Below, in pieces: positions 3,286 through 51,448 of a DNA stretch of 64,000 nucleotides. The notes beneath the pieces were generated by a model that had not been told where the DNA came from, made no database searches, and saw nothing but the letters and a program-made list of their open reading frames with translations. The position numbers and the translations under genes are program-made. Source of the stretch: Takakia lepidozioides (lineage: Eukaryota; Plantae; Bryophyta); contig CM060733.1 of assembly GCA_030704615.1 (NCBI GenBank), positions 20,088,001 through 20,152,000 on the forward strand, given 5' to 3'. Within the stretch, counting starts at the first letter, position 1, and the number at the start of each line of letters is the position of its first letter.

Positions 3286-3399
3286 ATTCTCTACTATCCC
3301 TCTCAAACTCGTCCGAGATCCAAGTTTGCTTCCAGATGCTCCCTCTATCCCTCGAACTGGAGTAAGCTCCTTCTGCCTTCCCCTCTCCCTCTGCATCAC

Positions 3400-14744: not shown

Positions 14745-16015
14745 TACTCACTAGCAGAATCCTCTATAGCTTCTAAATCCAAATAGCGCACCGCCTTTGG
14801 AAAAATGTGTCAAGCGTTCTTTTCCACCTTCCATTCCCTAACATTCTCCCACCTTTGTTCTTCTATATCATTATGCATATGAGCAACATATGTAGAGAGA
14901 TGATATCCTACATTTGGACTAGGAGTTAGCGTGGCCATCAAGGTGGCGATGACACCTCTTCTAGGAAGCGTAGTCATGCATTCACAAAATACATTGACTT
15001 AATTAAATACATAAAACTAATAAATCATTTGCATCAATATGGAATGAAAAAAAAAAGAGGTGTAATGGTATAGAGACTTACCCACTCCGAAAACTCAAGG
15101 ATATCATCCTGCCCATTGAATTGGTCCTTGACATCGTCAACCACTATGGTGCTAGTATCTGCACCCACCCCAAATGCTTTCATCTCGAGGCCCTTGAGAC
15201 GACTTGTGATAAGTGTTGAATCAGCCTCAAGGGCCAATAAGTTCCGACCAGAGGCAACAACGGCCAACATAGAGGCACCTGCATTTTTCAAATCGAGTCT
15301 TAAGTATATCACAAAATAAGCATGTCAATTACAAAGTATGCAAAATACTTGATTTAATATGATAACACACGTCCGAAAAAATCTAAAGCAATCAATGAAA
15401 ATGAGTATGTTTGCCTACCAGTGGATCCTGTAAAATCCACAATTCGACCACCCTCCTTGGTGCAAGTCTCAATAAGACACTGCATAAATAAAGGACTGTT
15501 CTCCTTCGAATCTCTCCAATGAACAGGAGTGGTAGGATTGGAAGAATACAAAGACTTTAACATGATTATGAAGAAAGTCCAAGTCCGCTGGGTCCAATCC
15601 ATCTTCAACCATTCGACCCCGAGGTGAGAATTCAAATGCACTATTCTCTTTGACAAGACAAAAAGCATAGAATGCAAGAGTATGCAAAACAAAATAAGAT
15701 ACATGGAATTAATCAACAATGGATGAATTGTGGATTGATTGATCATAATCAATTGACCAATTGACCAATTGATCATAATCATAGCATGCCCAATGGCACA
15801 TGGAACCCCACTCCGATCCATTGGTACTACATTCCATGAAGGCACACTACAACCCACTCCAAATACAAGGCACCCATCAGGAATGTCTGCAATGACCATG
15901 TCACAACAATAACCAACATTCTTCCATTGTAGAATATTTGACCAACCATTTGACATCTTGGTAAGAAAATTCTCAATAACCGAGAGTGAGCTTGGTCACC
16001 CTTTCACCTTTGTCT
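14745..16015 (-). pseudogene. Degraded C-terminal part of the ParB-methyltransferase cargo gene (beta-class MTase fold)
   Basis: CDMVIADIPDG, WRDSKENSPLFMQCLIETCTKEGGRIVDFTGSTG, GASMLAVVASGRNLLALEAD and RYLDLEAIEDS are collinear with the exons at 38487-39891. Contains stops and an internal deletion. Confidence 0.8.
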
Positions 16016-16043
16016 GATGCATTGTTTGTTTATCGTTGATAAG

Positions 16044-16845: not shown

Positions 16846-17265
16846 AGAACTTGAAGATTGCCCAATGTTTTTTTGATTTAAAGAAAATATAGACGAAGCC
16901 AAAGACTTTGGACGATAAGCAAACGCTTGATCATGGGTCCGGAGAAACTGTTTCGCCATCTCTGCATTCGACGCTACAACAATATCACTAGATCCAAGGC
17001 GCAAGTACATCAGAGGCCCATATTTCTCGGCCAAGCGTGCCAATGCCTGGTGCGGAAGTTCACCCAACATGGGTAGGTTTCCCAAGACAGGCCATGGGCG
17101 TGGCCCTGGAGGCAAGCGAGTAGGTTTTCTTAAGAAGAGGTAACCGTACACTACAATGGTGACAATGATGCCTATCGATAGACGTAGCCCAAATTGTTCC
17201 TCAGCCCACCGAGCGATTTCTTGCAGCACCCCTGGTGTTTTCATATTTTCGACTACCCCACTCAA
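16845..17265 (-). pseudogene. Truncated paralogue of P450 exon 1, fused to the Gypsy fragment
   Basis: Near-identical to the first ~125 aa of the 1330-3285 P450 (LRKPTRLPPGPRPWPV...YRPKSLAS). Similarity ends abruptly at ~16845. Confidence 0.9.
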
Positions 17266-22993: not shown

Positions 22994-23151
22994 CATCTCT
23001 TCGCAAGCAAAGTAGTGTAAGGCATCAGCAGCCGCAATTGTTGAGATTAGGGAGAAGAGGAGGTGTTGCACTGGATATTGTCTGAGTTGATAGGCAGCCT
23101 TAGCGAGCGCTGGGTATTGACAGCTTGGGAGGCTGAACAATTGAGTAACAT

Positions 23152-29500: not shown

Positions 29501-31097
29501 AAACAGGGACAGAACATTCACATGTTAGCATATCATAGAAGCTTCAAGTACCGGTTATAGTATGAAGGAATGCTCCCATTGACACAGGGACAAAAACAAA
29601 CAGGGTTGAAAGTGAAAGTGATAGTGAAAGTGTTGGTTTGATGGATATAATAGTCTACTGGTGCATGGCAGGTTAGTTAGCCAGGATTTATGTGGCAGGT
29701 GTTTCTTAGTAGGACATGGATTAGCTCATGAGGGATTGGCCTGCACTCCAGGTTGTGAGGAGCGTGTGAAGCACCACGGTTTAATTTACTCTGGTTGGGC
29801 ACCCCAGCAGCAAATTCTTAGCCACCCAGCCGTTGGTGGCTTCCTTACACACTGTGGCTGGAATTCTACACTGGAAAGTATCTGTGCAGGTGTCCCACTG
29901 CTCACGTGGCCACTGGCGGCAGAGCAGCATATGAATGCCAGGTTAGATTCATGTGCCTCTTGGCCAAAGCTTCAAAACTTCTGGTTTGTTTCAGTAAGCT
30001 GGGCACATCACCTTCCACTCTGACTAGACAGAAAAATTAGGAGAAATCTAGTGCATCCAAGGGACAGCCAGAGGGCCTGTGGGATAAAGTAGAACATTTG
30101 GATCCTATGGCTGGACGCCTCCGAGAGAGAGTGGAGAGAGGTGGCTGGGTATAGCACATTAGGTCAACTGTGGATGGGGAACTTGTAGGTGGAAAAAAGA
30201 AGAAAGAAAGAACTGTGTGTTATAATGCTTTCCCTACCACTTGTAGCCTTCCATGTGGAGGACAGGTAATCCAGGATTCCCCGACATTGTGTGGATCAAG
30301 AGGAAGGGGGCAAAACTTGACCTCCCTAAGATTTTGGTCAACCCAACAAAGGCAAGGGTTTGAACTTGTTGGTGTCCCTTTTGTTGACATGGTCCGAATG
30401 GAAAGCATGGTTGGTTATCTTGGCCTTTGTTATGTATTAGCGTATTCCTACTAGCAAACTGTAGTGTAATTGATAGAATATTCTGAACTCAAATTGGTTT
30501 GGGTGAGCAGAAATCGACACCAGATTTACTTGAGAGGTTGTCTACTTCCCTACGGGAAATAAGGGAGGCTTTGCGTCAGGGCTAATGTAGGTGGGATGTG
30601 TTGTGTCATGATTGGGGAATGAACCTTTGGCTGGAGTGTTTGCTATTTAACAAACTTTTAGCAACTACTCATGTCATCAGAGTAAATGCACATACCTATT
30701 GGGGAGAGTTAATGGTGTGAAGCAAGTAGAGCTTTGTCAATTGTGAAACCCAGTGTTGCATTGAAATTACGTTTTGACTGGTTTGATGATACACTTTCCT
30801 GTGCTACAGATTTCTTGTGGATACAGCAAAACTGGGAATGGAGATGCAACAGGGAGAGAGTGGATTGTATGAGAAGGCAGAAATTGAGAGGGCAGTGAGG
30901 GTTCTGATGAGAGAGGATGAAGGACTGGTCATCAGAAGCAGGATGAATGCTATGGGAGACGCCGCATGGACAGCCTTTGCTGATGGAGGATCCTCCAACA
31001 GGAATTTAAAGGCATATGTGAATGAACTCAAGTCCAACATCCCCATCTAACATCTCTTCGCAAGCAGAGTAGTGTAAGGCATCAGTAGCCGCAATTA
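26527..31097 (+). repeat. Segmental tandem duplication of ~18455-23039 (UGT gene with promoter and introns)
   Basis: High identity by eye from GATGAAGAAGGGTTGGTG through GCCGCAATT, including introns. Confidence 0.95.
27022..31050 (+). CDS. Family-1 UDP-glycosyltransferase, copy B; exons 27022-27540, 28125-28382, 29108-29435, 29752-29941, 30810-31050; 511 aa
   Basis: Same exon structure and PSPG box as copy A; in-frame 1536 nt. Confidence 0.95.
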
Positions 31098-33325
31098 TTG
31101 TATGCGTGCTTAAGTGTGTACCTTGGTGTTCATGAGAGTGTTATTACGAGGGCAGATCGTGGGCCTCGGGGATAGATTCCATACGGCTGGCTAAGCACTA
31201 CTTCTATGAGCTACCCCCACATACGTGACAATACCTGCAGAGGAGTCGTATCTACTGTAGGAACAGGAATATTGGTGGAGATGGAGGGTTGAATAAAGTC
31301 CTCGGAGATTGCTAGGAAGTTGTCTCTGTGTGAGGCTAAGGAGAGGTTGTTGAGAGGGGAGAGGCTGAGTTGGGCTGAGTTGGGTGTACCACTATTCACC
31401 ATTGCGGGTGAAATCGCTACTGAACTAGGTAGTTTTAAATTTTTTCTGACAAACCCGACACACTGTGCATGTGGTTTCTCAAGGGTGGTAGCTCCTTGGT
31501 TTAGCAAATCTGTGTCCAGAATGGAAGCTGCCACAACATAATGCTTGATTTAGCTGGTACCAGGGGTGGCAGTAGGTAAGTCTAAACACTCAGAGGGTGT
31601 ATTTCCGGGGTCCAACTTTAGATTGGAGAGGGTTAGGAGATCGCTTTGTGGATTACCGAGCATACCTTGATCGCAAAGGAGAAATTGGTACAGCCTCCTT
31701 GTCATTCTCAGGTAAAACCATGTGTTGTGTTTTGGCTCAAAGTGGATGCCAACTTGTGGCACTATTTCCGTTAAGCTGTGTATTTTATACACAAGTAGTG
31801 CTACATCAGCTCCTACTACTGTGTTGCGAATTGGGATTTGCAACTATAACCTGTCGTGGGAAGGTAAATCTTGCATAGAAAGAGTCAGTCTGGGAGCATT
31901 AATGCCCGTCAATACGCGGTCTCGCCTGGACCCAGATTCATTGAAAATCTTACTTAGAAGATATCAGAGCCAAAGTAAGGAGTGAACAAGAGGAGGTGAT
32001 ACCTAAATCTATGTGTGAGTCCTTGTCTCGGGATACGACATCTGTGCCAGATTTGACCGAAGCCCCTATAGGCCCCTATAGGCAACGCCCAGGCAACCGA
32101 TGTGCAGGGCTTGTGTGAGGCAATGAATGCACTATCCAATTGTTCGGCCCTCATGCAACAGTTTCAGTTTCAGTTTTGATGCCCGACATTAGCCAGAAGC
32201 ACCTAAGGTTTGAGACTGAGTCCACCAAACAGAATCACAAGCAGCCTTCCCAGAGTATGAGGCAGGTGAGGATTTTGAAGTATTTTTGAACCTCTTTGAG
32301 ATGAGTATTGAAATGAACCTAATGCGCCCCCAGAGAGACATGATCACTTAAAGCTTTCGTTTTTGTCTCAAAGGTAATGCTTGGACGCTGTTTGAAGTAT
32401 AAAACACAAGGGGAATCTGATCACTTGGGATTGGGGACGACCATTGGTGTTCAGAGCGGAGGAGATAAAATCAGTCTGTGCCTGACCGAGTCTACCAAGA
32501 AGGTGAGGGAGTGTATTACGCGGAGTATGTAAGGCAATGCCCATAGCTGCTGAGCGTCCAGTCATTCTCAAAATGTGCTTTATTAAAAAGAATTGCCGCC
32601 AGCCGAACAAGTCTACCTACAAAAGCATCCTTACAAGGACGAGCAAGACATGGTATAGTTGATTGAGGAAAGAATGCGCTTGAGAGTAACAACAAAAGGG
32701 GAAGTGAGGTAAAGATGACTCAAAAGGGTTTGTAGATCTTTGATGGGGAGATGGGTATCTCTAATATGGACATGAAAGGGATCAAGAGTGGTGTTGCACA
32801 GGTGGTGCCCTCTCTGCTGGATGAGATTATCACTACGCAGAAAGAGCTTCACATTGAGCTCACGCAGGCGTTCAATGGTCGAGCAAGTGAGTCTGGTGAC
32901 ACTGGCAGCTCGTATCAAGTAAAAGGTAAGGCGGCCTCCGTCTGAAGGCGGCGAAAAGATTATCGTCATCTGCAAAAGGTAGTAGGGTTCATCCAAACCC
33001 CGCGACTATAGTGGCCCGTTTGCACCTAGGGTCCATTTTGCACCACCGACACGTGCCAAGTTAATGAAAGAGTGCAAACTGGTGGCCCGTTTGCACCTAG
33101 TTCAATTAATGACATCACCCGACCATTCACAGGTTGTCCCCCTTCTGCCCCACATACCGTGAGATATTCCTTGGTCTGTTTCCAGTAATATCCCGGGAAA
33201 TGACTATGTTTACATCCATTTCTGGAGGGCAGCACACATGCATGGCCCGCATGCATGACATGCACTGCATTCATAGTATGCTACCACATGTATGTGATGA
33301 CAATGTATGTAGAGATGGTCCGTAC

Positions 33326-33842: not shown

Positions 33843-34590
33843 GTCCATACTATGACAATGGTCCATCTCCGTTTATGGCATCATCTGCATGAGAGATGAT
33901 ACGATGGTATTGATCTACCATACACTATTTGGTGAATATCTCTTTCTTGAACTCGCTATTTATCAATTTGAAGTTCTTCTTTTCATCATATTTTAGCCAT
34001 GTTTTAATTTTTTAATATAAACATATTATTGATATTTTAAATCATTCTAGTGCTTTCAAAACATTAATTTGTCATCCTAAAAATATTTGATATATATATA
34101 TATGGAGGAATAAAATGGTCATGCTTACTATTTAATTGAATATAATATAGAATGATGATAAGAAATGTCCTTCAAGGATTGAATATTTTCCCTATAAATC
34201 TATCTCTATTGAGCAATGTTTTGAGTGGCTCAAAACATTGTTTTCGGTGAATACATGAAATAGATACTATTGGTAGTTTTACTACCATGTGTATTAGTAT
34301 AGAAGGGCGACTACTCATGAATCTTCCTCGCACCTTTTATAGGTTCCCAATCCGCTTTGTACAAATATATCCACCATTCTCTATACCTAGGATATAATAT
34401 AAATTATTAAATACCAAAATAACTTGAAAATATTTCAGAAGCATAATTTGCTAGAAAAAGTAGAAAATGTATATCTCAAAAGGTTTTAGTAATTTTTAGC
34501 TACTCAAAACATACATAACAGGGCTGTGGCCTGATTGTGTAATGACCAGCGGTTAGTCTCTCTGCCTTCGGGCTAAGCTCTGCCCCTGTA

Positions 34591-34960
34591 GGGTAAAACA
34601 CCCTATGACCGTTATAGTTCCTATGACCGTTCACCTCATAATTGCTTGGGTCAGGCCTGCATGAGCGACCATGGCTGGGCCCAAGACTTGCTCATTTTTG
34701 CCACTTGGCAAACAGTTGTTTGATAGAACCCCCAAGAAATATGAGTGGTCATAGGGCTCAAACTTCACACAAGCATTCGGATTGGTTCAACTTTGAAACC
34801 CCATAACTTTGTGTGGATTTCATGAAATCATGCACTTCCAAATGTGTTGGGATGCCCCAGATGTGGGGCATCTTATCAATTTATCCGGGGTAAAAACGAC
34901 AAAAATTCACCGTTAGATCTTCCGCCATCATTAGATGAACGGTCATAGGGTGTTCTACCC
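34591..34960. mobile_element. Tc1/mariner-type MITE
   Basis: TIRs GGGTAAAACACCCTATGACCGTT and AACGGTCATAGGGTGTTCTACCC, flanked by TA. Confidence 0.8.
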
Positions 34961-35049
34961 TAATGCCTCCACAGCTTTGCTAGTGTTTTCCTTGGAAACC
35001 AAAAACAAAAAAAACATGTTTTTAAATGGGCAACTGTCATAAAAATACT

Positions 35050-37020
35050 ATATGACAGATTTACTGGAAAGATTGTTAGGCCTTATAGGACATCTCTTAT
35101 TGTCATTTCACAAATACCGGAATGACCTAAATATATGTGGGAAGCTTAATTTTCTTTTTAAAAAAACATTTACTTGAAAGATTGTTAGTCCTTAAAAGAC
35201 ATCTCTTATTGTCATTTCACAATACCATGGGCCTTTCAAGTACTTAAATAGTATATATATGATTGAAATTAAAATAAAATCCCAAAATGACCTAAAAATA
35301 TTTGGGAGGCTTAATTTTCTTTTTAAAAACAACATTTACTGGAAAGATTGTTAGTCCTTAAAGGACATCTCTTAATGTGATTTCACAATACCATGGGCCT
35401 TTAAAAAATATAGGATTGAAATTAAAATATTTTTGAAACTCCAAAATGACCTAAATATGTTTGGAAGGCTTAATTGTTTTTTAAGAAAAACATTTACTGG
35501 AAAGATTGTTAGTCCTCAAAGGACATTTCTTCTTGTCATTTCTCAATACCATGGGCCTTTCAAGTACTTAAATAGTATATATATGATTGAAATTAAAATG
35601 TTTGCCATAAGGCTTAGACACACGGAGAACGTGCAGGAGATTCCTGAGAACAATGACAAAGATTAAACATCTCTTAATCCCGCCAATGGCAGAGAACCAC
35701 TAGGGAGATATCCCAGCAAAGAGGGGAGGGAGCGATACCCTCCATCCACCATGTCCCAATAGGAGGGGGGCCTAGCCTGACCTAGCGCTCGACCAAAACC
35801 AAGTAAGAGAACTAAGAGACCAGAATCAGCATAATGCACTTCTATTATGAAGGTGACGTTTCGATTCCAGTTTATATCCAATCTCTCGAACTCAGGGGAG
35901 GCTGAAGATGGGGTATCTGCGGTGCTGCCATAAATGAGGGATCGCGTTCTTGGCGGCCAAGAATGGGAGTCAGATCCTGTGCAGCTGCAAATAATTCCCA
36001 CAATTCCCACAGTGGAATTGGCTCATTTTTTGATATGTTGTGCATAAATGAGTTGGGCCCACTTCTATATGGCAGGAATCTATGGATGATTTTTGGTAGG
36101 TTTCTGCGGGCAATTTACTGCAACTCGGTACCCAAATTTGTTAAAAACTCCAAAAAGAGCATGGAAAATTAACACAATATCATGGGCCTTTCAAGACTTA
36201 AATAGTAATGATTGAAACTAAAATGTTTTTGAAATTCCAAAATGACCTAAAAATATTGGGGATGCTTAGTTTTCTTTAAAAAAATATTTATTGGAAAGAT
36301 TGTTAGTCCTTAAAGGACATCTCTTATTGTCATTTCACAATACCACTAGGGTAGCCTGTGCCGTTGGCCCAAGTGTGCAGTGTCATCTAAGTCCCAGTGC
36401 AATCCCATATGTATCCAAGTGCCATATGTATCCAAGTGCGTCTCCTATGTTGAGGCCCATGTGTGAAAAATTGAAATCTAAGACCAAGTGCAATTTCCTC
36501 TATATCCAAGTGTGTCTCCTATGTCTAGGCCCATCTAAGCCCAGTGCATTCTTCTATTCATGTATCCAAGTACATCTCCCATGTAGACGCCCGAGTGTCC
36601 AATGTCATCTAAGTCTAATCATTTTTTTTCCACAGAGCCTACGACCAGATTTGAACCGGAGATCTTTTCCTTGATATCTCTCCGGTCGAGGCTCCAACCA
36701 TTGTATCAGGAGAGCCCACTTTGCTATTTTTCCCGAATTTCCAGCGACCCAAAGTACTTGAAATTTCACATCTCCCACACCGCAAGTCCAAAAATCATGA
36801 GACCAAGTTGGTGCACCCCTCCTCATCGAAGGCTTTCCAACGGTACCAAGCACTCAGGGTGGGCCCCGTAGTTTGGGACATCTCAAATCTACAAAACAAA
36901 ACAAACGTCTCGATTCATATATTGATGCTTTCAAGTACTTAAAATAGTATATATTTGATTGAAATTTAAAAAAAATCGAAATTCCAAAATGACCTTAAAA
37001 TATTTGGGAGGTCTAATAAA
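35050..37020. repeat. AT-rich tandem repeat (~110-165 bp unit), interrupted by insertions; inverted copy at 51449-51680
   Basis: The unit TTTACTGGAAAGATTGTTAGTCCTTAAAGGACATCTCTTATTGTCATTTCACAATACCATGGGCC recurs at ~35060, 35169, 35335, 35493 and 36287. Confidence 0.85.
36346..36925 (-). mobile_element. Non-autonomous Helitron
   Basis: On the minus strand it starts TC(AATATATG) and ends with a degenerate GC hairpin then CTAG. It is inserted between A and T in the CCA|TGG of the tandem repeat, with no TSD. Confidence 0.7.
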
Positions 37021-38486
37021 TTGCCTCTCATTTTAGATTAATTGGGTCTTTAATGCCTCACGTATGAGCTAGGCAGCAAGGCCCAAGCACGGATGGGGGG
37101 TCGCCTCCCCCCTCTCCCTCCCCCGACCGGCGAGCCACGCAACGTGGCCCCAACGCGGTCGCAGCCGCGCAATCCCCCGCCCGCGGCCGCCGGCCCCCGC
37201 GGTCCGCCCACACCCCGCCCATGACACAGTCCCCTCGTGGCTGCTGCAGGGTCCGCCTACGGCGGGGTCCACCCTCGTCGCTGTGGTAGACCACACCTGC
37301 AAGGTCCCCAGGCCCCTCACCAGACCCACCACGTTGTGCGCATCCGGCTGTCCAACCACGGCCCTATCCAGACCATCTGGATTTAGGGCATCGCATTGCA
37401 GCCGCCGATTGATCCCTCTTCCCCCTTTGCTCTTTTCTGTTCCCGTCTCCTTCCCGTCTAGACTCGCTCCTAGCAAGAACATAACGTGTCTATTGTCATT
37501 CTTCTCTTCCACCATTGCTACTGTATCAATGCAGGTCGTATTGCAGGTTCTAAAGCATGCGTGAAGGGGTACTGTAGATCAGTACATCGCAGCGACCGTC
37601 GATGCCAAACCTGAAAGTTTTCTTATACGTCTACTTCAACAATGTCTGCAAACACCAAAAGATGGGCCATTTTCTTGTGAAGATCTTTACTGAAAGAATG
37701 AAACCCGCTTTGGATACATGGGCTCACAAGTGCTAGTCCAAACAGCTTGTATTCCTTGGGAGAGAGTGGGCGACTTTGTGCTTGGAGAGGAGAGTAGAGT
37801 AGAGACGGGTGTTCCACTCAATTTTATATAAATGCGCATGTTTCCGCGAAGCCTAGTACATAGACAGCTCCAAGAACTAACACATACCTAACCTCTGTCA
37901 TGTCTGCACCATCAGATTCTTGCACTTCCGGTCCATTTTCTTTCTATGCTCGCACCACATCTTATATGTTTGCTACGATGTAGATATGGTTCATATTGTG
38001 CTTACATGCTTCCAGGACTCCATGGGTATCGATGGGGGAATGCTTGCGCGTGAGCCTGGCCACGTGAGCCTGTGAGCCTGTGAGCCTGGCTAGGCTCACG
38101 CCACGTCAGCAAGCTTCCACGTGTTCAGGCCGTAATTTCGTGCTTACCCCCCCTATTACCGCGGATCAGCTGTCGCCTATGTCCTAATTTTTTATCCCTC
38201 TTCAAGGCCCCCACATGAATATTCTTTGTGGCCGAGAACAATGGCAGGTTTGCGGATGAATTATGATTGAGGTCATGACTTTGGAATGAGGAGATCGTCC
38301 ACTAGAGAACTGAATATTAAAAGCAAACATTTTTTTTGGGCAAAGCAGTACATTCATTCCAACACACAATCATTTTTCAATTCCGCAATCCGAAGACCTA
38401 TTTTAGGCAATCCCCAACTGTACTTACGGGAACGCGCAAAGAACTTGAAAAACAGTTTGGAGATGGAAGCAAAACCAAAATACAAT

Positions 38487-41400
38487 TTATTGAGCCTCGG
38501 TACTTGAACCTAAAGAAATATTGGAGGTTTCAGAGGAACCACTTCCAGAGTGTACAGCAATATCATCTATGAATACAGCAGCACATCCATGACGTTTTTT
38601 TTTTCCTCGACCTTCATGGAGATGCGAGTACAGTGTTTGTTCGGATAATACCCGTGCGCAAGCTTCCGCGTAAACCGGCAAGCGGTTGGATCTAGGGGGG
38701 CTCGGGGACATGTAGTATCCTTGGAAACCGAAAGGCGTCTGCTGATTCGATGACTGGTGCTGAACTCTGCAAAGCAAGAAGAGGAATGGTGGTATATGTT
38801 AACATCCAGATATAGACAACGAAAGCCACTATTTCTCGAATGGGAACGACACAAGGAAATGCAACATATTTTGCACGAGTACACAAGAACTTACTCACAC
38901 TCAAAATCGGAGTCCACGTCCAGATCCTCGTCAGGCGCTTCGGGCTCCTCCAGAAGTCCCTCTGTGGATGGGGCAGAAGTAGTGCCCGACTCAAGCTGAC
39001 GAAGCTCGCTTGAGAAGAGCTCTGTATCAGCTTCCATGCCGAAGAAGTGCCTTCCAGCGCTCTTGCAAGCATGAAAACATGCTCCTGCAAATCCAAGAAG
39101 AACGAGAAATAAAAACCGGGTTTCCCTAAGGTCACTGCCCATATGTCAAACACAATGTGAAGGGCCCCACCTGTGCCCATAGACAAGTCAACCACTCGCC
39201 CACCATGACGGCTGCATGTCTCCACCAAAGTCTGCATGAAAGCTGGAGATTTCTCCCGTGCACCTCTCCAAGGGACACCATTCGTCCTTTTCATAGTCCG
39301 ACCCGAGTCGACGTAATTGAAGATAACATCATCCTCCACAGGCTCGCAGGTGGGGTCAATGTGAGCTGCAAGGTCCCTCAACTGAAACTCAGCAACACCA
39401 GCAGGAAGAGTGTCCGTCCGCCTCACCAGGCACAAAGCTTCGAACACTCGTGTCTGTCATTAATCACGAAGACAGAATGAGACAGAAGACATAACCCACC
39501 ATTTTGATTTACCGGAAAACCACGAAACATCAATTGAAAGGAACCAACTCACTTTCTGCCCCGGGAACTCGCCCTTCGTAAGAGGCAGAGTATTGATGCA
39601 TGTCCAAGTTTTGATGACACGAAACCCGGAAGCTTTCATGTAGCTGAAAAGAGTTCTTCGAGCCGACATGTCCTTTGACTGCATGAGAAGAAGAGCCCCC
39701 GAGTCCGAAAGGAACTTGTTGCTGAACGAGAAAGCCCACTGCCAGTAACGAGAATCCGATTTGTTCCAAGTCGGGGTCGAATTGGAAGGAAACACATCAG
39801 GGACAGGAAAACCGTCAGGAATGTCCAGCACCACAAGGTCAGTCGCGTATGCCTGTTGAACTCCATTCACCCATTCCGGACTTTTTGTGACCTACAGCCA
39901 AAAACATGAGACATTGTAAGAAGCCAAATCCAAATCTAACAGGAGATCAATCCCCTGGACAAGCCACAACAAGCTGCCAAACACAATTATTCATACAACA
40001 GTTTAGACATAAGTTTTCACCTGAGTGAGGAACGAAACAAGCATGTCCCACGATTTCGAGGGCACCCCTTTGAATGTGGACTTCCTTGACTCCATCATTG
40101 AAAGAAAACTTTCATTCAGCACCTTACGATTGAACTGGCCCAAAACCCTGGAGGGATGTTCTCTCGCCTCGAAAACTTGCTCCCTGGACTTTGAAGTTCT
40201 CCTATCCCTCCTTGCGGGAGAAGGCTGTCTTTCAGGAACCTCTGACGGTCCCTGTCCTTGCGGAGCTGCACTTTTCCCCTTCCCCTTCGGATCCCCGACA
40301 ACCTTCCCCTTTCGTTTTGGAGTAGCAGTTTTCTCGGGCTCTTTTGCAGCCAGAGCCGAAATGATTCTGTCCTGGATGTCTTTCTCAGCCAATGGGGCAA
40401 TCGCTGCGGCATTGTCGTTCAGGTTTCTCAAAACAACTTCATCGAATGGGGTGTCCTGTTTTGGCAGGTCGAGGTACCACCCACAGTCTCGGAAGTGCGC
40501 CCTGCTCCAGTCTTTGGCAATACCAGCCGTGTACATTGTCTTGTCATTGGAGGGGTCAGCCCATGAATAGATGAAATCTGGGTCATCGCTAAGGTACTTT
40601 CCCGGTATGAGGATATGATACATATACCTGAATCACATACAAAAAACGCAGACAGTCATTCGATCAGAAAACGAAATAGAACACACATCCGGAAAAAGAT
40701 ATTGAAATGCAGGAATGCAAAACTGAGAATTCTACTTTTGAAATCCCGAATTAACCTTGCGTTGACGCAATGTTCATTCTAGCAGAAATGGGGAACACCA
40801 AATGATAATGTTGTATTGATAGAGACAACGAATGGAAGCGCGATTCAACATTGCTTCAACGCAAGGTTGTTTTAGGGTTGAGAGGAAATGGAAAACACTG
40901 CATGAAAACTACCATCAGACTATGTACTGGTGCGGATATTCAACATTGCGTTGGCGCAATGTTGAAATCCTCTGTTGAAACACATGTCAATGGTATCTGA
41001 TAATCATAAGTTTCCTACAATTGTATTGAAATAGGTGGATGGCTGCGGGAAATTTGCAACAAACCATACCGCCAAACAACCTTGCGTCAACGCAAGTCTG
41101 TTTGTTGGTACACTTAAAGTTGAAAATAGCATTTCAAACCGACTAAAAACAGACTTATGTTCATCTTGGCAGCATTGGAACTGGATTTGAACTGCCCAAA
41201 ACCACAGGAAAAGCTACATAGCCTGACACTTCATCAACCTTGCGTTGACGCAAGGCTGATTTTCCAGTCAGTTTATCCCTTTCACATTGAGAAAAACGGA
41301 ATTATGGGATACCCAGGTATAGGTAAGTGAAACCAGAACAATGGGAATCAACCTTGCGTTAACGCAATGTTGCTCGACTGCACATGCAGAGCCCTCAGAG

Positions 41401-44287
41401 ATATCGCAAAGCACTGCAAATTCGCAATTCCTTATGGAAAGAACGACACAAGATTGCAGAAACATGCCCTTCAAGCACCAATTTTGATTCAAGGAGGTCA
41501 CACCTGTACAACACTCGCTTCATTGCTTGCTCGCTGTTGTACTGGTTTTTGAATTCGTAAGACCTGGAGATTCCTTTCTCTTTCTCAAACTCCCTGAAGA
41601 AGCAGTTGTTCCAGACAGCGAGCTTCCATCTCCTGATATAGGCCTCCAGTGTGATCCGGGGGCAAGCCATCTGGATTTTGTAGTCTGCCATCGACTCAGC
41701 AAGTGCAGCCACTGCACGTTTTTCTAACTGCAACAAGAAAGCTCGTAAGAATTTTGAAGAGGTTACGGAGCATCAAAAATGTCTGAAAATGGTTTGGTTC
41801 AAACCTTACCTGGCTCCAGAATGTGGCTTTGTGTAGCCACTGGTCGAATGTGTGGTCGCTAACAACTCTTATTGCTTGTGTCTTCGGGTCCCTCTCTGGA
41901 GTTGGGAACATGTTCGTGTCTCTCACAAGAGGATCCGAATTCCATATCTCCAACCACCTGATTTTGGTTGCATTGTCCACCATTGAAATGGAAAGGCGAT
42001 GTAGTTTCTCTTGAGTCATTTCTGGCTTGGAGCCATACTTATCATAGTGTGCTTTCACCTGTTCCAGAAATTCCGTGCCAAGACCTGGGTCTGCTATCCG
42101 GATCTGTTTGTCGAATGCACTCATGAGGTTCTTCCTTTGATTTTTCATCTCGAACTTCATAATGTCCTCAAGCCCAGTTGCAGACCGCTGCTCTTCTGTG
42201 TGGGAATCATAGTACTCTGCTTTCGCCTTCAATCCAGTTTCTGCTATTTCTTGCTGCATACATAACAGGTAAAAAGAATCAAAGACTGCAATTTCATCAC
42301 AAAATTTGCAGTATTAACAGGCAAAAGGTGTCAAAAAGCTTACAGTGTACATGTACTCAAGAAAAGCCTCCCTTGTCAAGCTGTACCATGTGCTTGTCTT
42401 CTTCTCAGCACACCTCTTCATCTGCTGAGGACTGAGCACGTTCGTGAATGACTCCAGTGGCATCAGCCCTACCTTCTGGATGCGGAATAGAGTGTGGCAC
42501 AGATTGGTCGTCACATGAGATGTTTCATTGGACCTGGAAAAACCTTCAACTCATAAGATGATTTCAAATTGTCGAAACAAGTAACAGACACAAAGTTGGA
42601 AACTTACTTGTTTATGTCGTGCATGGCTGTCAAGAGCTGCGTGACACGTCCTTTGTGATCGAGAACCATGGAAACCACGCTCCAGTGCCATTCGATGTCG
42701 TCCGAGTGCAAGCTTGAAATGTAATCCATCCAGGCAAGCAGTCTGTGGTTCCCATCCCAGACAAAAAACATCTTTCCCATGAATGCTTTTGTGGAGGCCT
42801 TTTTGGACAGCTTGAACTCGAACTCCCTGTTTACATCCCGCCAGCATGCATCCCAACCTTGCTCAATGTCTCTGTTACAAGACACTCCTCTCCTTTCGTG
42901 TTCATAGTGGATACGTAGAACACTGCTGATCCCTTGACATAGCCGTGAACAAAGTCGTTCTTCAACTTCGTTATATCGTTCCTCAAAGCCGGTCGAACAG
43001 CGGGCATGGAGATCATCCTGCACAGCGGAATGACCAGGTTTCCTCCCGGAACCTCCATCGACAAAATCACCTTCGACGAGTTCACTTTTTGCCCACCAAT
43101 TATCTCCTCGGCCTTGTCTTCATAGTTTCCCTCCAATGCATCTTCCTCACCTTCACCTTCTGACGCGGCCAAATCTTCCCCCTCGGATTTCTTTTTTCTT
43201 TTCCTCTGCACAGAATGAATTATCTGTGAGTGACAGATTGAGCACCCATGGATCAACATTGCTTTGACGCAAGGTTGATTGATGGGGATGTAGTTTAGAC
43301 TGAAAAGCATACAGGAAAGACTTTTCAAGCAAAAAAGTGCTTTGCGTTGACGCAGGGTTCTTTTGGGAGCTTCAACTAATCAACTTTCCCTACCTTACAT
43401 TTCAGGATATGAGAGATCGGACGCCTCCATTGAACAAAAAACTCATCAAAACAGCCTTGCGTCAACGCAATGTTGATTCATGTGCGGCATCTGTTCGTTT
43501 CACTAGAAGTTCTATCATACACAATGGAGGTAGGCATCAACCTTGCGTTGACGCAAGGTTGATTGCGAGCTCTCGGATCGGTGTTGAACAAACACAAAAG
43601 CTACAGGAAAAGTTGACTGTTGTCTCTTCTTCTTCTTCAAACTTGATGATGCGTCGCAAGCATCCATGTCTGTCTAGCTTGATTGTAGAGCAGCATCTGC
43701 ACTGTTTTCATGCACAATATATACGCTTGGGAGGTCGACTTCAACCTTGCGTTGACGCAAGGTTGATGTCGACCTCAATGCTTAGCAAGAACCAAAAGAA
43801 TCAGAGAGAGAGAAAGAGAGTTCATAGCCACCTCCGGTTTCTTCTTTGCACTTGATGATGCTCCTGACGCATTCAATCTTTCCATTTCGTCTGGAGGTAG
43901 CATGCTTCCAAGGAGGTCCCGATGGTGCGAAACAAGGGCAGACGGCATCGTTTCCGCGTCCGTTTGTTCTCCCTGCTCTTTGAAGACCTGTTTCTCTACT
44001 CGCAGTGCTTCCTCCCTAGCCCAGCTCACTTCCTCGTCCTCCCCCCCTTCTATTGGAGGTTGCTCATCGGTCGCCTCCGGGATCACTTCAAGACCTTCCT
44101 CTCCACACTGCGGTTGCAGAATCCTGTTCTGCCCTTCGTCTTCCTCTACGCCGGATGTTTCTTCTCCCATTCTAAGTTCCCGTCTCGCCTTCCTCATCCT
44201 CTCCTTAGAGCGTGCCCTTTGCTTCTTTGATGTGAAATAAAGTGTTCTTCGACGCTTGCTTCTCCCTCGGAATGGGGTCACCGTCTC
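38487..44287 (-). CDS. TE cargo gene, ~1200 aa: basic/acidic N-terminus, ParB/Srx-like domain, beta-class N6A/N4C DNA methyltransferase fold. Exons 44287-43832, 43205-42608, 42533-42344, 42253-41810, 41727-41504, 40627-40021, 39891-39553, 39453-39171, 39084-38895, 38766-38487. Start exon unresolved; one frameshift at ~42870
   Basis: Nine GT-AG introns with consistent phases. ParB-like motifs VRPALRNDITKLKNDF...FFVWDGNHRLLAW. MTase motifs in beta order: DLVVLDIPDG (IV), REKSPAFMQTLVETCSRHGGRVVDLSMGTG (X-I), ACKSAGRHFFGMEAD (II). Confidence 0.8.
40753..41372. repeat. Intronic palindrome array 1, consensus CAACCTTGCGTTGACGCAAGGTTG
   Basis: Six copies at ~40753, 40846, 40939, 41077, 41233 and 41349, all inside intron 40628-41503. 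Confidence 0.9.
43252..43776. repeat. Intronic palindrome array 2, same consensus
   Basis: Five copies at ~43252, 43340, 43452, 43536 and 43731 (the last is a 46-bp near-perfect palindrome), all inside intron 43206-43831. Confidence 0.9.
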
Positions 44288-44920
44288 TGCAGAATCCAGG
44301 GTTGCAAAGACAATAACGAGAAGAGGGAAAAAAGAGGACTATGGGAGGTTCATCGCAAGGCCTTCAACGCCAAGATGTTCGCTCGCAACGTTCAGTGCGC
44401 CACTGACTCATTCCACATGCATGGCGAACACGTGTCCATCTAATCGTTATGAAATATCGGCGGAGATCATTGGATCCTCATCCATTCAAAAACCGTTGGG
44501 GTCTAATCACCTCCCATCTGAAAAAGTTCGTTATTCTGGCATGTTCCAGAGGAATGTCAAGTGTGTACAGTTGTACAGCGGTGTAGGTGCCGTTAAAATT
44601 AAATGGAAATGGGCATCTCTTCTGGCCTCTCTGACATGACAACCAAACGGCGGCTCTGTCAGTCAATCTGTCAACGAATGCACTGGTGGGGCACTTGTGA
44701 AAAAACAGTTGGATTCTAGGATTAGGGCTGACATTATGACCATGCGCTTGGTTTGCATGGGGAGACATTTCACAGAAGTGGAAACCCGCGTTAGGAGATC
44801 TGCAAGCCGGAGCGATACCTGCAATTCTCTGTGAGGACGCCAAAAACTCCGCTCCCACACAATTTGCATTCACAAGCACGGTCGGACTGTGAACTCTACT
44901 TTCTGAAGCAACATCGACAT

Positions 44921-47900
44921 ATGGCCTCCCAGGCCATGGGCTCCCTTGATGCGGACTTCTTCAGTGAGGACCACCCTGTGCCATTTTCTTACGAGGTGGA
45001 AGATGATGGTTTTGCGCTGGTGCATGAACACGTCCTCGCAACGCAGTTTCGGTTGGAAAATGGAACTCTATTCCTTCAAAGGGAAGTGTACGATGCCAAT
45101 GGAAAACTGCTCAAGTACGTGTTCCAGAAACCTTCGCATACTGCACCAGCCACACAATGGAGAGTGCCTCCAGGCAGATACAGGGTGCTCAGTGCCCCTC
45201 TGAGACAGTCTGCAGGATCTTTCGTTACTCCTGGCACGGCAGCATCAGTGGCCCAGGAGAAAACACCCGTGGTTGTCAAGAAGGAGACGAGTACCGTTAA
45301 CACTGTAGTTGAGCTTTCGGACTCATCCTCCGATGACACATGTGCAATACCGCCCGTGGATCAGCCATGTCCACCTGTAGAAGCAGATGTGGAGGAGATC
45401 ACCAGTGTCATTCCTAAACTGAAAGCCATGGGAGGGATGGCAGGATTCAAGAGTGAGTTGAGGGGGATAGACTGGAGCACTTTCAATATTCAGAGGGTGG
45501 CATTCTTGCCGGAATCTTTTGATGGTAATATTGTTTTCGAGCTCCCTCCTCCTGGTCGCTTGGGGGGCATTTCTAGTCTCCTGGAAGGAATGGACAAAAA
45601 GCACGATGGGCACCCTTGGTGCCGCACAAAAACCTCCAATATTCACAACAACGACAAACTCATATTCAGGCGAACAGTCTGTAATGGGCACCTGAAATGC
45701 GAGAACATGAAATGCAGACACTTCGCATTGTCAGGTGTGCAAAACCAAAGCGAATGGGATGGTGTCAGTGAGAATCCATTCAAGCCTGGGGTGACACCAC
45801 CATACAGTAACACTTTTGTGTGCAAGTTCTGTAGGGTACCACCTTGCTGCCTTGCTTTGTGTGGCGCCAGAATGTATTATGTGGTGCATCGATTCAAAAC
45901 CCTGACTAGAGCCTGTGTCCATTTCGGTTTTCACAACCACCCTGTGTCCAAGGGGGATTATAGGGAGAGCGTTGACACAGTCTCGCGTCTGATAAGGCAA
46001 GAGTTGGATACCAATCCAACTGGAACCACATCTGCAATTGCCATGGGGGCGAGCAAGTCCTTTCTGGAAAGCCGTATTCTGTGTGCATCAAATTCGGTTG
46101 GAGGAATACTGGAGGGATCGGCTTTGGACACTGTTATGGACCATTTCTCAACTTTGACTTCTCCAAACATTAGGAATCAGGTGAACGCTTTAAGAATGGG
46201 CTCTGGGAGCCGAGGTTATATGGACAATATTATGGATTTGAAGAAAAGGAGCATGTATGACTACATCCAAGACAGCGTTTTCCCGGGACAAGGAGCCAGG
46301 AAAGTGTTCTTGTTCAAAATGTCCACAAAAGGTGAGGGCAGCGGGGTCAGCCTGGTTAAACGTATGCAGAAGGGTGGTGATCTTGGCAACTGTTTCCTTA
46401 TGTTCGATCATGTCAAGAGGGTTAAAGACTGGACCACAATGGCATGTCATGTTTACGACCCTGTGTACCAGCGGGTCATGACAATTGCAGTGTGTGACAT
46501 GCAGTCAGAGGACACAATTCACAACAGCTCATGTGGGAAGCTCTCATTCGAGTTATGGCCTCCAATGGTCTCCCATCTCCCAATTTCGTTGGTTTCATGG
46601 CCGATAGTGCTCAAGCTAACTTCAACGCTGTCCGCATTGTGTTCGGGACGGGAGACCCAAAAGTGCCAATGCCTGGAAGAGAACGTACATGTCTTTTCCA
46701 TTGGACACAATCCCTGGACAAACACACAAAGACATACATCAAGCCAGATATGCAGACTATGCATCGCCAACTGTGCAACCAGTACAAGGACGCCATGGGG
46801 GAAGCGAATACATTGTTCCAGACAATTCGTGCCTGGTGGTACTCATCTGGAGCGGCATCGGAGGACAGCATGAGGGCACTGCAAGACTGGTTCGCATTTT
46901 GGCACTTCCGTTACCGACAGTGGGGAGCGGCCATGACAACGGTGAGTGGTTTGTATTCACCTTCGTTTGGGTGCTTCGGATATATCTTTCAGGGTCCAAT
47001 CCTAATATCGGGTTTCTGTTTTTTTTCCTTGCAGCATATGTCCATTGAGGAGATGGCGGACATGCCTTCTTGCAATCTTGCAGAGACAGTGCACAATGCC
47101 TGGTTGCAGCAATCCGGCAAAAAAGGGAGAGATTTGTATGCGGCGACGGCCGATGACCTCATTCGTGCTCTACAGCAGCAAACCAGATATAGGTCATTCT
47201 TGAGGGGTGGCCTTGGTGGCAAAGGTCCGGACAGGAGCGAGTTGATGTTGCGGGCAGCTGGAAGATCAGGGGATCCCAGCAAAATAGCGCGGGCAGTGAG
47301 CATATGTGCAGATGGCACCCCTCTCGTGGGAAGAGTTCCCCATCTGGAAGGCGAAGAGAGATTCGGGTCTTGCAAACGGAAATTGGACACCCCTCCCGGA
47401 TCAGATGCAGATTCCCATAGGCCGGACAGGGTGAACTTCTCAACGCCACGTGTTCACTTGGATCAGAGATGGAATTGCGGAACATCACAGGTGAGGGCTA
47501 CTCTGGCCCAGACCGGACCCCTGCATCAAGCATTGTCACTGCAATGGTTGAAGACCACAACGTGGTGCCGCATATAATCGAGTCCATGGGCTTGGACGAG
47601 GTTTGGCATATAGAACGCACAAGTGCTGGATCTCGTGTGAAATGCGCGGCGATCAGGGCCACCAATCATGAAAAATGTACATCATTAATCTCCAGAGGGA
47701 AAGAACGCACTGCAGCTCCTACATTCACGGGTTTGTTTCTCCCTTACGGACAAGGCGAGGCAAAGAACCACAAGTTCTGGTTCTGCGCTGACGATTGTGG
47801 GAGATGTGTGCATGGTACAGTGAGGCCTTCCGTGGTAAGGAAGCCTACTCCACCAACCGTGTGGCCTGTGAAGATGGGCACAGGTCTCACTCACCGAGAG

Positions 47901-48414
47901 ATTGCAATGCTGGAAGAGGCGGGTTTCTCCCTAGCCAGACATTCCATTGCACGTGAAGGTGCTTCAAGTGGAAGCGGTTCACGGGTACCTCCCCTGACGC
48001 TCACTTGTGGCCAACCAGACGGAACGGGAAGCTTGTTCGACGATTCCCTCCAACCGCAGAACATACGGCAAAATTGAGTCCGCCAGAATGCTTCACGCTC
48101 GTGTTGCGGGAACAATGGAAGTGCCTGATCCAGGGTATGGTCGGGTCTTCACCATGATCTCATCCGCATCTACGCTGCAGGACAGGACGTACGAAATCAC
48201 TGTTTCCAATTTTCCCAATTGTACATGTCCAGATTTTGTTGGTATGCTTTCAAGTAGTTTGGGAAAGAGAGGGAAGTTCATACCGTGCAAACACCTTTAC
48301 TTCGTCTTCTTGAGAAGGATGGTTTGTGATCCAAAGCGCGACTTCTTCATTCACCAAGCCACTATGAGTTTCAACGAAGTCAACACACTTCTACAGCGGG
48401 ATACAAGCCCATAA
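44921..48414 (+). CDS. MULE-type DDE transposase with WRKY/GCM1-like N-terminal zinc domain and C-terminal SWIM finger; intron 46942-47034; frameshifts at ~46515, ~47465 and ~48000
   Basis: DGHPW...CNGHLKCEN...HNHP (WRKY/GCM1-like), FLMFDH (D1), FMADSAQANFNAV (D2), CLFHW (CxxH), SCNLAETVH (E), and YEITVSNFPNCTCPDF...PCKH (SWIM). Confidence 0.85.
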
Positions 48415-48596
48415 AAATCGGTGTTTTCCTTGACTACAACTTGTAATGGAATGACTATTCAAGTCCAGTGACTCTCAATGTATGACGTCAAACATCTTTG
48501 CTATGCGTGGGTCAATGCATTTGTCGCATTGGTTTGTCATTCTCTTTTCATTAGCAAACAAAAGAAACTACCTTCAGATAGACAGATGATTAAATC

Positions 48597-48828
48597 AACC
48601 TCGTCTCAACACGAGGTTTACTTGAAGTTCTCCAAATCCTCCTTGTGTTGACACAAGGATGATTTTAGTTCTCAGAAAACAACATCGTGTCAACACGAAG
48701 TTCATTTTTGTTCCAGGAAAACAACCTTGTGTTAACACGAGGTTTTGTTGAAGTTCTCCAAATCCCCCTTGTGTTGACACGAGGTTCATTTCAGTTCTAC
48801 GAAATGAAGCTCCTGTTAACAGAAGGTT
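48597..48828. repeat. 42-bp-period palindrome array, consensus AACCTYGTGTYRACACRAGGTT
   Basis: Copies start at 48597, 48639, 48681, 48723 and 48765, with a degenerate one at ~48807. Confidence 0.85.
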
Positions 48829-49077
48829 GAACTCCAGAAGCCCAAAACCCTCATCCGTTTCACCTTCATGTGGTGAAATCAGCAGTTCGGGGCTCCACGG
48901 TTATAGGCCCACCTTCTTTGTGGTGACGTGGCATAACCTGGACCAGGCTCACGCCACGTCAGCATCAGCGCCATGTCAGCAGCATGAGCGTAGGCTCACG
49001 CCACGTCATCATTGTGTGAGCGTACGCTCACACGCTCACGCGCCAGGCTCACGCGGTAGCGTCGTTGGGTATCGATG

Positions 49078-51152: not shown

Positions 51153-51448
51153 ACTAGTGTTGGTACCGTTGGAAAGCCCTTGACGAGGATTTTTGGACCT
51201 GCGGTGTGGGAGATGTGGAATTTCAAGTATTTTGGGTCGCTGGAAATTCACAAAAAATAGCAAAGTGGGCATTCCTGGCCAATGGTTGGAGCCTCGGCAG
51301 GAGAGATATTAAGGGAAAGGTCACTGGTTCAAATTTGGTCGTAGGCTCTGTGGAATTTTTTTTTTCTAGATATGGTATGCTTCGTGTATTGATGCACTTG
51401 GACTTAGATGACATTGGACACTTGGGCCAACGGCATAGGCTACCCTAG
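51153..51448 (+). mobile_element. 3' part of the same Helitron, in the right inverted arm
   Basis: Reverse complement of 36346-36850 (with deletions), ending in CTAG|T at the identical site of the tandem repeat. Confidence 0.7.

What the first reader, a model, noticed from the sequence alone, without database searches (positions are those of the whole stretch)
38895..39891. Methyltransferase catalytic motif reads DIPD(G) instead of DPPY/SPPY in both family members
Motif IV is DLVVLDIPDG here and DMVIADIPDG in the diverged copy at ~15880. Motif I is DLSMGTG and DFTGSTG, against canonical DPFxGSG. The aromatic residue that stacks on the flipped base is missing in both, so this is a family trait and not decay. 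The domain may be a pseudoenzyme or reader, or may have different chemistry or substrate.
Basis: partly seen in the sequence, partly recalled or inferred. Interest (0 to 1): 0.75.

Follow-up and report, generated by a model that had tools for sequence, protein, structure and literature searches.

The report
Transposon methyltransferase missing its stacking tyrosine
A multi-copy jumping gene of a likely moss carries a conserved, spliced extra gene whose predicted bacterial-type DNA-methyltransferase domain lacks the base-holding tyrosine in all 34 relatives scored, so the protein likely binds the element's own palindromic repeats to protect it rather than writing an ordinary methyl mark.

Summary
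The motifs are real: DLVVLDIPDG (39840-39811) and DLSMGTG (from 39189) lie in the last three exons of a spliced minus-strand gene. The gene sits in an 11-kb, multi-copy, MULE-like DNA transposon (38035-49065). The domain is predicted to be a beta-class N6/N4 amino-methyltransferase (model of a Ceratodon relative, Z 16.3 to M.MboIIA). Loss of the aromatic residue is family-wide: 0 of 34 relatives scored have it, 31 have Asp/Glu. The exons are under purifying selection among copies (24 synonymous, 13 replacement differences).

A phage subfamily has D[ILV]PYG and D[FN]TMGSG, and a related, validated m6A enzyme (M.Phi145I) reads DLPYG/DNCAGS. The derived changes are Tyr to Asp/Glu in motif IV and HPTQK to G[APS]REK in motif X. 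Upstream exons encode a ParB-like DGNHR segment, and 17 palindrome copies lie only in the element's non-coding DNA. ParB plus amino-methyltransferase accessory genes are already reported in algal transposons; I did not find this motif variant in print.

Best reading (0.45): a self-targeting pseudo-methyltransferase. Altered chemistry 0.30; ordinary activity kept 0.20. No activity was tested.

The parts
39553..39891 (-). Methyltransferase-like exon with motif IV DLVVLDIPDG (39840-39811) and conserved PxWN (39777-39763)
39171..39453 (-). Exon with motif X equivalent WRGAREK (39270-39250) and motif I DLSMGT(G) (from 39189)
38891..39084 (-). Last exon: motif II acid (GMEAD, 39040-39026), acidic tail, stop
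   Evidence: spliced contig
40021..40627 (-). Exon: conserved aromatic segment, then a low-complexity linker
41504..42533 (-). Three exons (42533-42344, 42253-41810, 41727-41504) of a conserved middle region of unknown fold; candidate DNA-binding part (inferred)
   Evidence: 31-53% identity to L003/L004; Ceratodon P0065/P0066 match 42115-41756
42608..43230 (-). ParB/Srx-like segment with WDGNHRL; one frameshift at about 42869 in this copy; start codon not determined
   Evidence: (motif and flanks conserved in L003); identity rests on the motif, fold test inconclusive
40752..43765 (.). 11 copies of a ~24-bp palindrome (core CAACCTTGCGTTGACGCAAGGTTG): 6 in the 876-nt intron, 5 upstream of the ParB-like segment
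   Evidence: none outside the element, 0 in 5 shuffles
48597..48828 (.). 6 variant palindromes at 42-bp spacing near the right end
44831..48411 (+). Divergently oriented MULE-like transposase gene: Cys/His-rich N-terminal region, CxxH, C-terminal SWIM; frameshifts near 46516, 47485, 47992, 48063
   Evidence: SWIM PF04434 E 1.5e-5; translation; other contigs carry the missing bases
38035..49065 (.). Whole element; subterminal inverted similarity 28 of 31 nt; termini themselves not inverted repeats
   Evidence: contigs break off at 38035 and summed depth drops outside the element
38023..38034 (+). Left 12-bp direct repeat (likely target-site duplication)
49066..49077 (+). Right 12-bp direct repeat, identical to the left
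15123..15995 (-). Decayed relic of a distant family member (DMVIADIPDG 15902-15873, DFTGSTG 15437-15417)

Best explanation
This is the C-terminal domain of a spliced accessory gene in a MULE-like DNA transposon; the domain is predicted to have the beta-class amino-methyltransferase fold, and it is likely a pseudo-methyltransferase that binds the element's own DNA rather than writing 6mA or 4mC. Shown: the gene structure, the element, its palindromes, the family-wide Tyr-to-Asp/Glu change and purifying selection. Predicted: the fold. Inferred: the ParB-like and middle regions would load the protein on the palindrome arrays; the methyltransferase fold would serve as a DNA-contact or dimer module, possibly still binding SAM; the outcome would be to keep the transposase gene, which shares the upstream region, from being silenced, as VANC does for VANDAL elements.
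For: The Tyr that stacks on the target base in beta-class enzymes (Tyr110 of N4CMT, PMC10406627 passages) is never aromatic here: D16, E15, S2, N1 of 34. All 3 full-domain relatives found through the other exon, so without selecting on motif IV, also lack it (DVPEG, DIPEG, DAPEG). The first, amine-accepting residue is Glu in 13 of 34 and the second position varies freely (Y12, A10, I5, V5, T1, N1), which is loose for a catalytic centre. The SAM-contacting His of HPTQK aligns with Gly (52 of 56), and the N-terminal GD/DC segment of the phage enzymes has no clear counterpart. The exons are conserved: 24 synonymous versus 13 replacement differences where 23% synonymous is expected, p about 1e-7. 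Palindromes are confined to non-coding parts of the element. Precedent: DIRS1 retrotransposons carry N6A-methyltransferase domains judged inactive, and METTL14 has a disrupted motif (PMC4738411 passages).
Against: An acid is kept at both ends of motif IV (33 and 31 of 34), with Pro in 32 of 34, rather than drifting. Motif I (D 52, T 44, G 42 of 54) and the motif II acid are kept. The other departures occur in the active M.Phi145I (PMC4190342), so the site differs from an active enzyme at few positions. New conserved Trp/Arg residues in WRGxREK (50 and 52 of 56) could replace the stacking role. No binding, SAM or activity data exist, and the ParB fold was not confirmed here.
Confidence: 0.45

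Rival explanations
1. Active enzyme with changed chemistry or substrate. The acidic D-x-P-[DE] pocket would stabilise a product that becomes positively charged, such as a ring-nitrogen methylated base (1mA, 3mC), or would accept a non-DNA amine; ParB-like targeting would put the mark on the element.
For: The Tyr position is fixed as an acid (31 of 34), which looks selected. SAM-site motifs I and II are conserved. The m1A58 enzyme TrmI has a negatively charged adenine cleft and a motif IV starting Asp-Leu (PMC2952851 passages); its fuller D-L-P-D/E motif is recalled, and a motif search in the papers did not confirm it.
Against: The fold and motif order are those of exocyclic-amine DNA methyltransferases (top 11 rows); TrmI is not among the 50 rows shown. 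1mA and 3mC block base pairing (established knowledge), which would harm a replicating element. Asp/Glu exchange at position 1 (20 versus 13) is loose.
Confidence: 0.3
2. Ordinary N6-adenine or N4-cytosine methyltransferase that compensates for the lost Tyr with another aromatic residue or the partner subunit, and marks its own element, as proposed for the algal ParB-methyltransferase proteins.
For: Asp and Pro of motif IV are kept, and position 2 contributes only a backbone carbonyl (PMC10406627 passage). D-L-P-Y with a non-canonical motif I is active in M.Phi145I. Invariant W-N after motif IV and the W of WRGxREK are candidates for stacking. PMC12477816 (passage) predicts 4mC or 6mA for the Ectocarpus protein.
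Against: All 15 annotated phage enzymes and 76 of 77 scored viral relatives keep Tyr. The W after motif IV also exists in Tyr-bearing phage enzymes, so it is not a replacement. Tyr or Phe mutants of motif IV strongly reduce activity in bacterial enzymes (recalled; the search gave no direct paper).
Confidence: 0.2
3. Neutral decay of a captured methyltransferase gene carried along by the transposon.
For: This copy has a frameshift upstream and four in the transposase; the ~15880 copy is a relic.
Against: The spliced frame from 42867 is open for 846 codons with seven GT-AG introns. pN/pS is about 0.17. The same variant motif occurs in relatives only 26-40% identical, including annotated Ceratodon genes. 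Spliced contigs come from two RNA-labelled studies.
Confidence: 0.03

Closest known systems
ParB-like plus N4C/N6A methyltransferase accessory protein of Ectocarpus Sola1-1_Ec32 (PMC12477816; passages and supplement rows seen)
   Same: Transposon accessory gene on the strand opposite the transposase, about 1000-1100 aa, ParB-like domain plus amino-methyltransferase domain; self-binding proposed.
   Different: Brown alga, Sola-1 element with 4-bp TSD, versus a likely moss MULE-like element with a 12-bp direct repeat. The paper predicts an active 4mC/6mA writer. The passages seen give no motif, and homology between the two proteins was not tested.
Plavaka accessory genes PAG2/PAG3 of Bostrychia (bioRxiv 10.1101/2025.02.11.637652; passages seen, supplements closed)
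   Same: ParB-like protein next to tandem inverted repeats; a PF01555 methylase in the same elements; homologues also in Mutator elements of Chondrus.
   Different: There ParB is fused to a 2OG oxygenase and the methylase to a SET domain, in separate genes.
Phage beta-class methyltransferases of the D[ILV]PYG / D[FN]TMGSG type (PHROG 67), including M.Phi145I (PMC4190342; passages seen)
   Same: Motif order IV-X-I-II, non-Pro second residue, Gly after motif IV, W-D/N downstream, motif I without the Phe at the canonical place.
   Different: They keep Tyr and HPTQK; the plant family has Asp/Glu and G[APS]REK. Descent from this subfamily is only weakly favoured (93/98, alternative not rejected, p-AU 0.51).
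M.MboIIA, CcrM, M1.HpyAVI, M.PvuII, rotifer N4CMT (solved beta-class enzymes)
   Same: Predicted fold: Z 16.3, 15.9, 15.2, 15.1, 15.1; rmsd 3.1-4.0 over 192-213 residues.
   Different: 10-16% identity; they have DPPY or SPPY.
VANDAL/VANC of Arabidopsis (PMC5735166; abstract and section list seen)
   Same: MULE accessory protein that binds repeated motifs in non-coding parts of its own element and counters silencing: a functional analogy.
   Different: No ParB or methyltransferase fold is mentioned in what I saw; anti-silencing is untested here.
Marchantia MpDN4MT1 (bioRxiv 10.1101/2021.02.12.428880; passages seen)
   Same: Beta-class amino-methyltransferase in a bryophyte.
   Different: Host gene with TSPPY and proven 4mC activity in sperm; not described there as a transposon gene.

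Membership tests
Beta-class N6A/N4C amino-methyltransferases (PF01555) | Permuted Rossmann fold, motif order IV-X-I-II | tested here: met
   on the Ceratodon relative P0065; motif order
Beta-class N6A/N4C amino-methyltransferases (PF01555) | Profile match at the curated cut-off | tested here: not met
   best 15.7 bits against 26.7; window exons no match; PHROG DNA-methyltransferase matches E 2.5e-5
Beta-class N6A/N4C amino-methyltransferases (PF01555) | Motif IV (D/S/N)-x-P-(Y/F/W) | tested here: not met
   0 of 34 aromatic at position 4; D or E at position 1 in 33 of 34
Beta-class N6A/N4C amino-methyltransferases (PF01555) | SAM-site motifs I, II and X | tested here: inconclusive
   D-x-[TS]-x-[SG]-T-G and motif II Glu kept, His of HPTQK replaced by Gly
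Beta-class N6A/N4C amino-methyltransferases (PF01555) | SAM-dependent methylation of an exocyclic amine | not testable with these tools
   needs an assay
ParB/Srx fold | DGxHR-type NTP-binding signature | tested here: met
   WDGNHRL in the window and in L003; compare DGQHR/DGQQR in PMC4619093 (passages)
ParB/Srx fold | Profile or structural match | tested here: inconclusive
   no Pfam, NCBIfam or PDB match for the pieces; single-sequence model of an 86-aa piece unreliable, pTM 0.49
MULE/Mutator DNA transposons | Transposase with C-terminal SWIM | tested here: met
   SWIM above cut-off; architecture as in PMC1702500 (passages)
MULE/Mutator DNA transposons | MULE DDE or WRKY-GCM1 profile match | tested here: inconclusive
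   no Pfam match; DDE and CxxH read by eye, motif knowledge recalled
MULE/Mutator DNA transposons | 8-11 bp TSD; long TIRs or non-TIR ends (PMC6446971 passages) | tested here: inconclusive
   12-bp direct repeat, one base over the range unless a flank matches by chance; only subterminal inverted similarity
Transposon ParB-methyltransferase accessory proteins (Sola1-1_Ec32 type) | ParB-like plus amino-methyltransferase in one gene opposite the transposase | tested here: met
   with the ParB caveat above
Transposon ParB-methyltransferase accessory proteins (Sola1-1_Ec32 type) | Sequence homology to the algal protein | not tested
   protein sequence not found in the supplement rows seen

The most novel reading that the evidence does not exclude
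Bryophyte transposons carry a ParB-guided enzyme, derived from a phage-type DNA amino-methyltransferase, in which a Tyr-to-Asp/Glu swap has changed the chemistry, so that it writes a base mark unknown in plant DNA (for example a ring-nitrogen methyl) at the element's own palindromes to block host silencing.
Probability: 0.15. Interest if true: 0.85.

Novelty: new variant of a known kind. Interest (0 to 1): 0.5.

Why it matters
Papers on the algal ParB-methyltransferase accessory genes propose that they mark their own transposon, and none of the passages I read reports a test. This land-plant branch has kept the fold under selection for a long time while fixing an acid where the base-stacking tyrosine should be. 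It therefore gives a one-residue experiment (D/E versus Y) that separates three models: writer of 6mA/4mC, writer of a different mark, or catalytically dead reader. The likely target sites, the palindromes, lie in the same element, and annotated Ceratodon purpureus relatives give a tractable host. A dead reader would be a second, unrelated VANC-like solution; a new mark would be a new plant DNA modification.

Tried and rejected
A search of exon 1 against longer proteins found nothing. Sequence searches of the PDB with single exons or exon profiles gave no significant match (at E 0.53, 68, 121). No prokaryotic or viral relative with the D-x-P-[DE]-G pattern was confirmed: 92 pattern stretches in genome contigs and 25 in viral contigs, none confirmed by tblastn. 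The exon-2 alignment was too variable for locus searches. ParB-like piece: no useful phage or plasmid match; its single-sequence model was not used for a fold search. The tree could not settle the donor subfamily; its phage rows were chosen by similarity to one hit, so they are not a fair sample. No run was listed as an RNA holder. L001-L005 were found with the motif pattern itself and were left out of the motif counts. Rejected: that motif I is uniquely degenerate (matched by phage enzymes); that the relic at ~15880 is an intact member; that the larger inverted repeats at 35-36.8 kb and 51.2-51.7 kb are this element's ends (the junction contigs and direct repeat place the ends at 38035 and 49065). 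An RsmB/NSUN-like DAPC motif (recalled) was considered and dropped, as there is no Cys and the topology is permuted. Literature searches that did not return this motif variant or a land-plant description. Subscription papers, the 2011 book chapter cited as ref. 50 in PMC12477816, and bioRxiv supplements were not seen and may describe it. No complex prediction was run.

Full report
Observation. Six-frame translation shows DLVVLDIPDG at 39840-39811 and DLSMGTG from 39189 on the minus strand. The second copy has DMVIADIPDG at 15902-15873 and DFTGSTG at 15437-15417. The window is eukaryotic. Joining eight predicted exon pieces from 42867 to 38891 gives 846 codons with no internal stop and seven GT-AG introns. 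A contig from an RNA-labelled run joins 39083 to 39170 (table 8, record 30), and contigs of both RNA-labelled runs laid have loose ends at 39170 that match the next exon. The tool calls the RNA label a guess, and these contigs come from related copies. The copy at ~15880 lacks the stretch after PSWN and changes frame: it is a relic.

Context. The gene lies in an element from 38035 to 49065, flanked by an identical 12-bp direct repeat. Contigs of other copies break off at 38035, and 25,119 contigs of one DNA run lay on the 19.5-kb stretch examined, with summed depth far higher inside the element than just outside (depth is not a copy number). On the opposite strand, 44831-48411 encodes a transposase-like protein with a C-terminal SWIM finger (E 1.5e-5), an arrangement described for MULE transposases (PMC1702500, passages). 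No MULE profile matched, so I call it MULE-like. This copy has one-base gaps at about 42869, 46516, 47485, 47992 and 48063 relative to other contigs; these may be decay or assembly error. The upstream exon carries WDGNHRL, conserved together with all following exons in the distant locus L003. It resembles the DGQHR/DGQQR signature of the ParB/Srx fold (PMC4619093, passages), but no profile or model confirmed the fold. Eleven copies of a ~24-bp palindrome lie in the large intron and upstream region, and six variants lie at 42-bp spacing near the right end. All are in non-coding parts of the element (41% of its length), with none elsewhere in the window and none in 5 shuffles. The only relatives with an organism name are Ceratodon purpureus proteins, so the host is likely a moss.

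Is the motif a family trait? A search with the motif X/I exon gave 61 hits. Three of them also contain motif IV and were found without reference to it: DVPEG, DIPEG and DAPEG. A profile search for the motif IV exon gave 29 more; this profile was built from Tyr-less sequences, which is a possible bias. Of 35 representatives, including the window's own exon, 34 could be scored. Position 1 is D20, E13, Y1; position 2 is Y12, A10, I5, V5, T1, N1; position 3 is P32, L2; position 4 is D16, E15, S2, N1, never aromatic. For the other exon I dropped P0047 (an unrelated repetitive protein) before counting. Motif I could be parsed in 54 of 60, one of them wrongly: D52, T/S 43 at the usual Phe position, T44, G42. 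The motif X equivalent, matched in 56 of 60, is W50-R52-G52-[APS]-R40-E51-K52.

Selection. Laying four runs on 39160-39900 listed 40 of 44 differences. Of these, 24 are synonymous, 13 replacement and 3 intronic, against 23% synonymous expected: pN/pS about 0.17, p about 1e-7. None of the listed rows falls in motif IV or motif I. The estimate is crude: it has no tree, no correction for transition bias, and treats sites in one codon separately.

Fold. AlphaFold2 on the Ceratodon P0065 domain with a 77-row alignment gave pLDDT 77 and pTM 0.77, with Asp45 at the end of strand 39-45. The first 30 residues are below 62. Foldseek ranks CcrM first (E 5.5e-12). VIA-align over 48,161 chains gives M.MboIIA Z 16.3 (rmsd 3.4, 205 aligned), CcrM 15.9, M1.HpyAVI 15.2, M.PvuII 15.1 and N4CMT 15.1; MT-A70 enzymes score 8-10 and other folds under 7. 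The window's own spliced protein was not folded.

What is actually unusual. Weak phage hits led to beta-class enzymes with DIPYG or DLPYG and DFTMGSG or DNTMGSG. Among 80 viral loci fetched, 77 were parsed and 76 read D[ILV]PYG; they were selected as close relatives of one enzyme. M.Phi145I, a validated beta-group m6A methyltransferase (PMC4190342, passages), reads DMILCDLPYG and DNCAGS. So the non-Pro second residue and the odd motif I are compatible with activity. The derived changes in the plant family are Tyr to Asp/Glu, HPTQK to G[APS]REK, and the apparent loss of the N-terminal GD/DC segment. In N4CMT the Tyr is modelled as stacking on the base, the first Pro gives a backbone carbonyl, the second Pro and the motif X His contact the cofactor (PMC10406627, passages; equating its His253 with the His of HPTQK is my inference). 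A 21-row tree puts the plant family beside this phage subfamily at 93/98, but the alternative is not rejected (p-AU 0.51), so the donor is a lead only.

Mechanism. I commit to a self-targeting pseudo-methyltransferase (0.45). The protein would dock on the element's palindromes through its ParB-like and middle regions, and the methyltransferase fold would act as a DNA-contact or dimer module that helps keep the element expressed. For this: loss of the stacking aromatic and the His, free Asp/Glu exchange at the catalytic position, and precedent in DIRS1 and METTL14 (PMC4738411, passages and section 8). Against it: the replacement is a fixed acid, motifs I and II persist, and few changes separate the site from an active enzyme. 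Altered chemistry (0.30) draws on the acidic cleft of the m1A enzyme TrmI (PMC2952851, passages; its full motif is recalled and was not confirmed). Ordinary activity through a substitute aromatic residue gets 0.20 and neutral decay 0.03. Binding, SAM use and anti-silencing are all untested.

What is known. A ParB-like plus 4mC/6mA methyltransferase gene opposite the transposase is described in Ectocarpus Sola1-1_Ec32, with similar proteins cited for green and red algae (PMC12477816, passages and supplement rows). ParB-like genes beside inverted-repeat arrays are described in Bostrychia Plavaka elements (bioRxiv 2025.02.11.637652, passages). VANC is the functional analogy (PMC5735166, abstract and section list). 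Unreviewed notes from this scan describe like elements in other plant genomes, some read as active and some as inactive; they pointed me to the Ectocarpus passage and are not independent support. My searches found no description of a land-plant version or of the D-x-P-[DE]-G motif; the library lacks most subscription papers.

Verdict. This is a new variant of a known but untested kind of transposon accessory protein. Interest 0.5.

Noticed in passing
P0103-P0116: A subfamily has E-Y-P-D-G in motif IV (10 exact, 13 with Glu first): Glu for Asp and a Tyr moved to position 2. It may be a separate remodelling of the pocket.
   Followed up: partly
window 39170-39220 (records 17 and 22): RNA-labelled contigs in both RNA runs (depth 48 and 91) share only about 51 nt around motif I, are spliced to the next exon, then diverge: a more distant family member that appears expressed, perhaps domesticated.
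   Followed up: no
window 33861-36801 and 51188-52563: A second, very high-copy repeat with tandem subunits forms long inverted arms around the element: a possible outer TIR element into which this one inserted.
   Followed up: no
window 18455-23043 and 26527-31100: A ~4.6-kb stretch is duplicated at ~8.1-kb spacing with 88-89% identity.
   Followed up: no
window 16017-17318 (-) and 2906-3359: Upstream of the relic copy lie a Ty3/gypsy-like integrase fragment and a cytochrome P450-like N-terminal fragment (both read by eye, recalled); the latter is repeated at 2906-3359 (82%).
   Followed up: no
window 42869, 43451, 43796, 46516, 47485, 47992, 48063: All are single-base gaps in the window relative to other contigs. 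If they are long-read assembly errors, this copy may be intact.
   Followed up: partly
P0045, P0064, P0065, P0066: Four annotated Ceratodon purpureus proteins begin at the middle region, without the DGNHR segment; the gene models may be split or the ParB-like part lost.
   Followed up: no
same genome, other windows: Unreviewed notes report an abundant gypsy retrotransposon with its own DNMT3-like methyltransferase in this genome, so two unrelated elements here may carry methyltransferase cargo.
   Followed up: no
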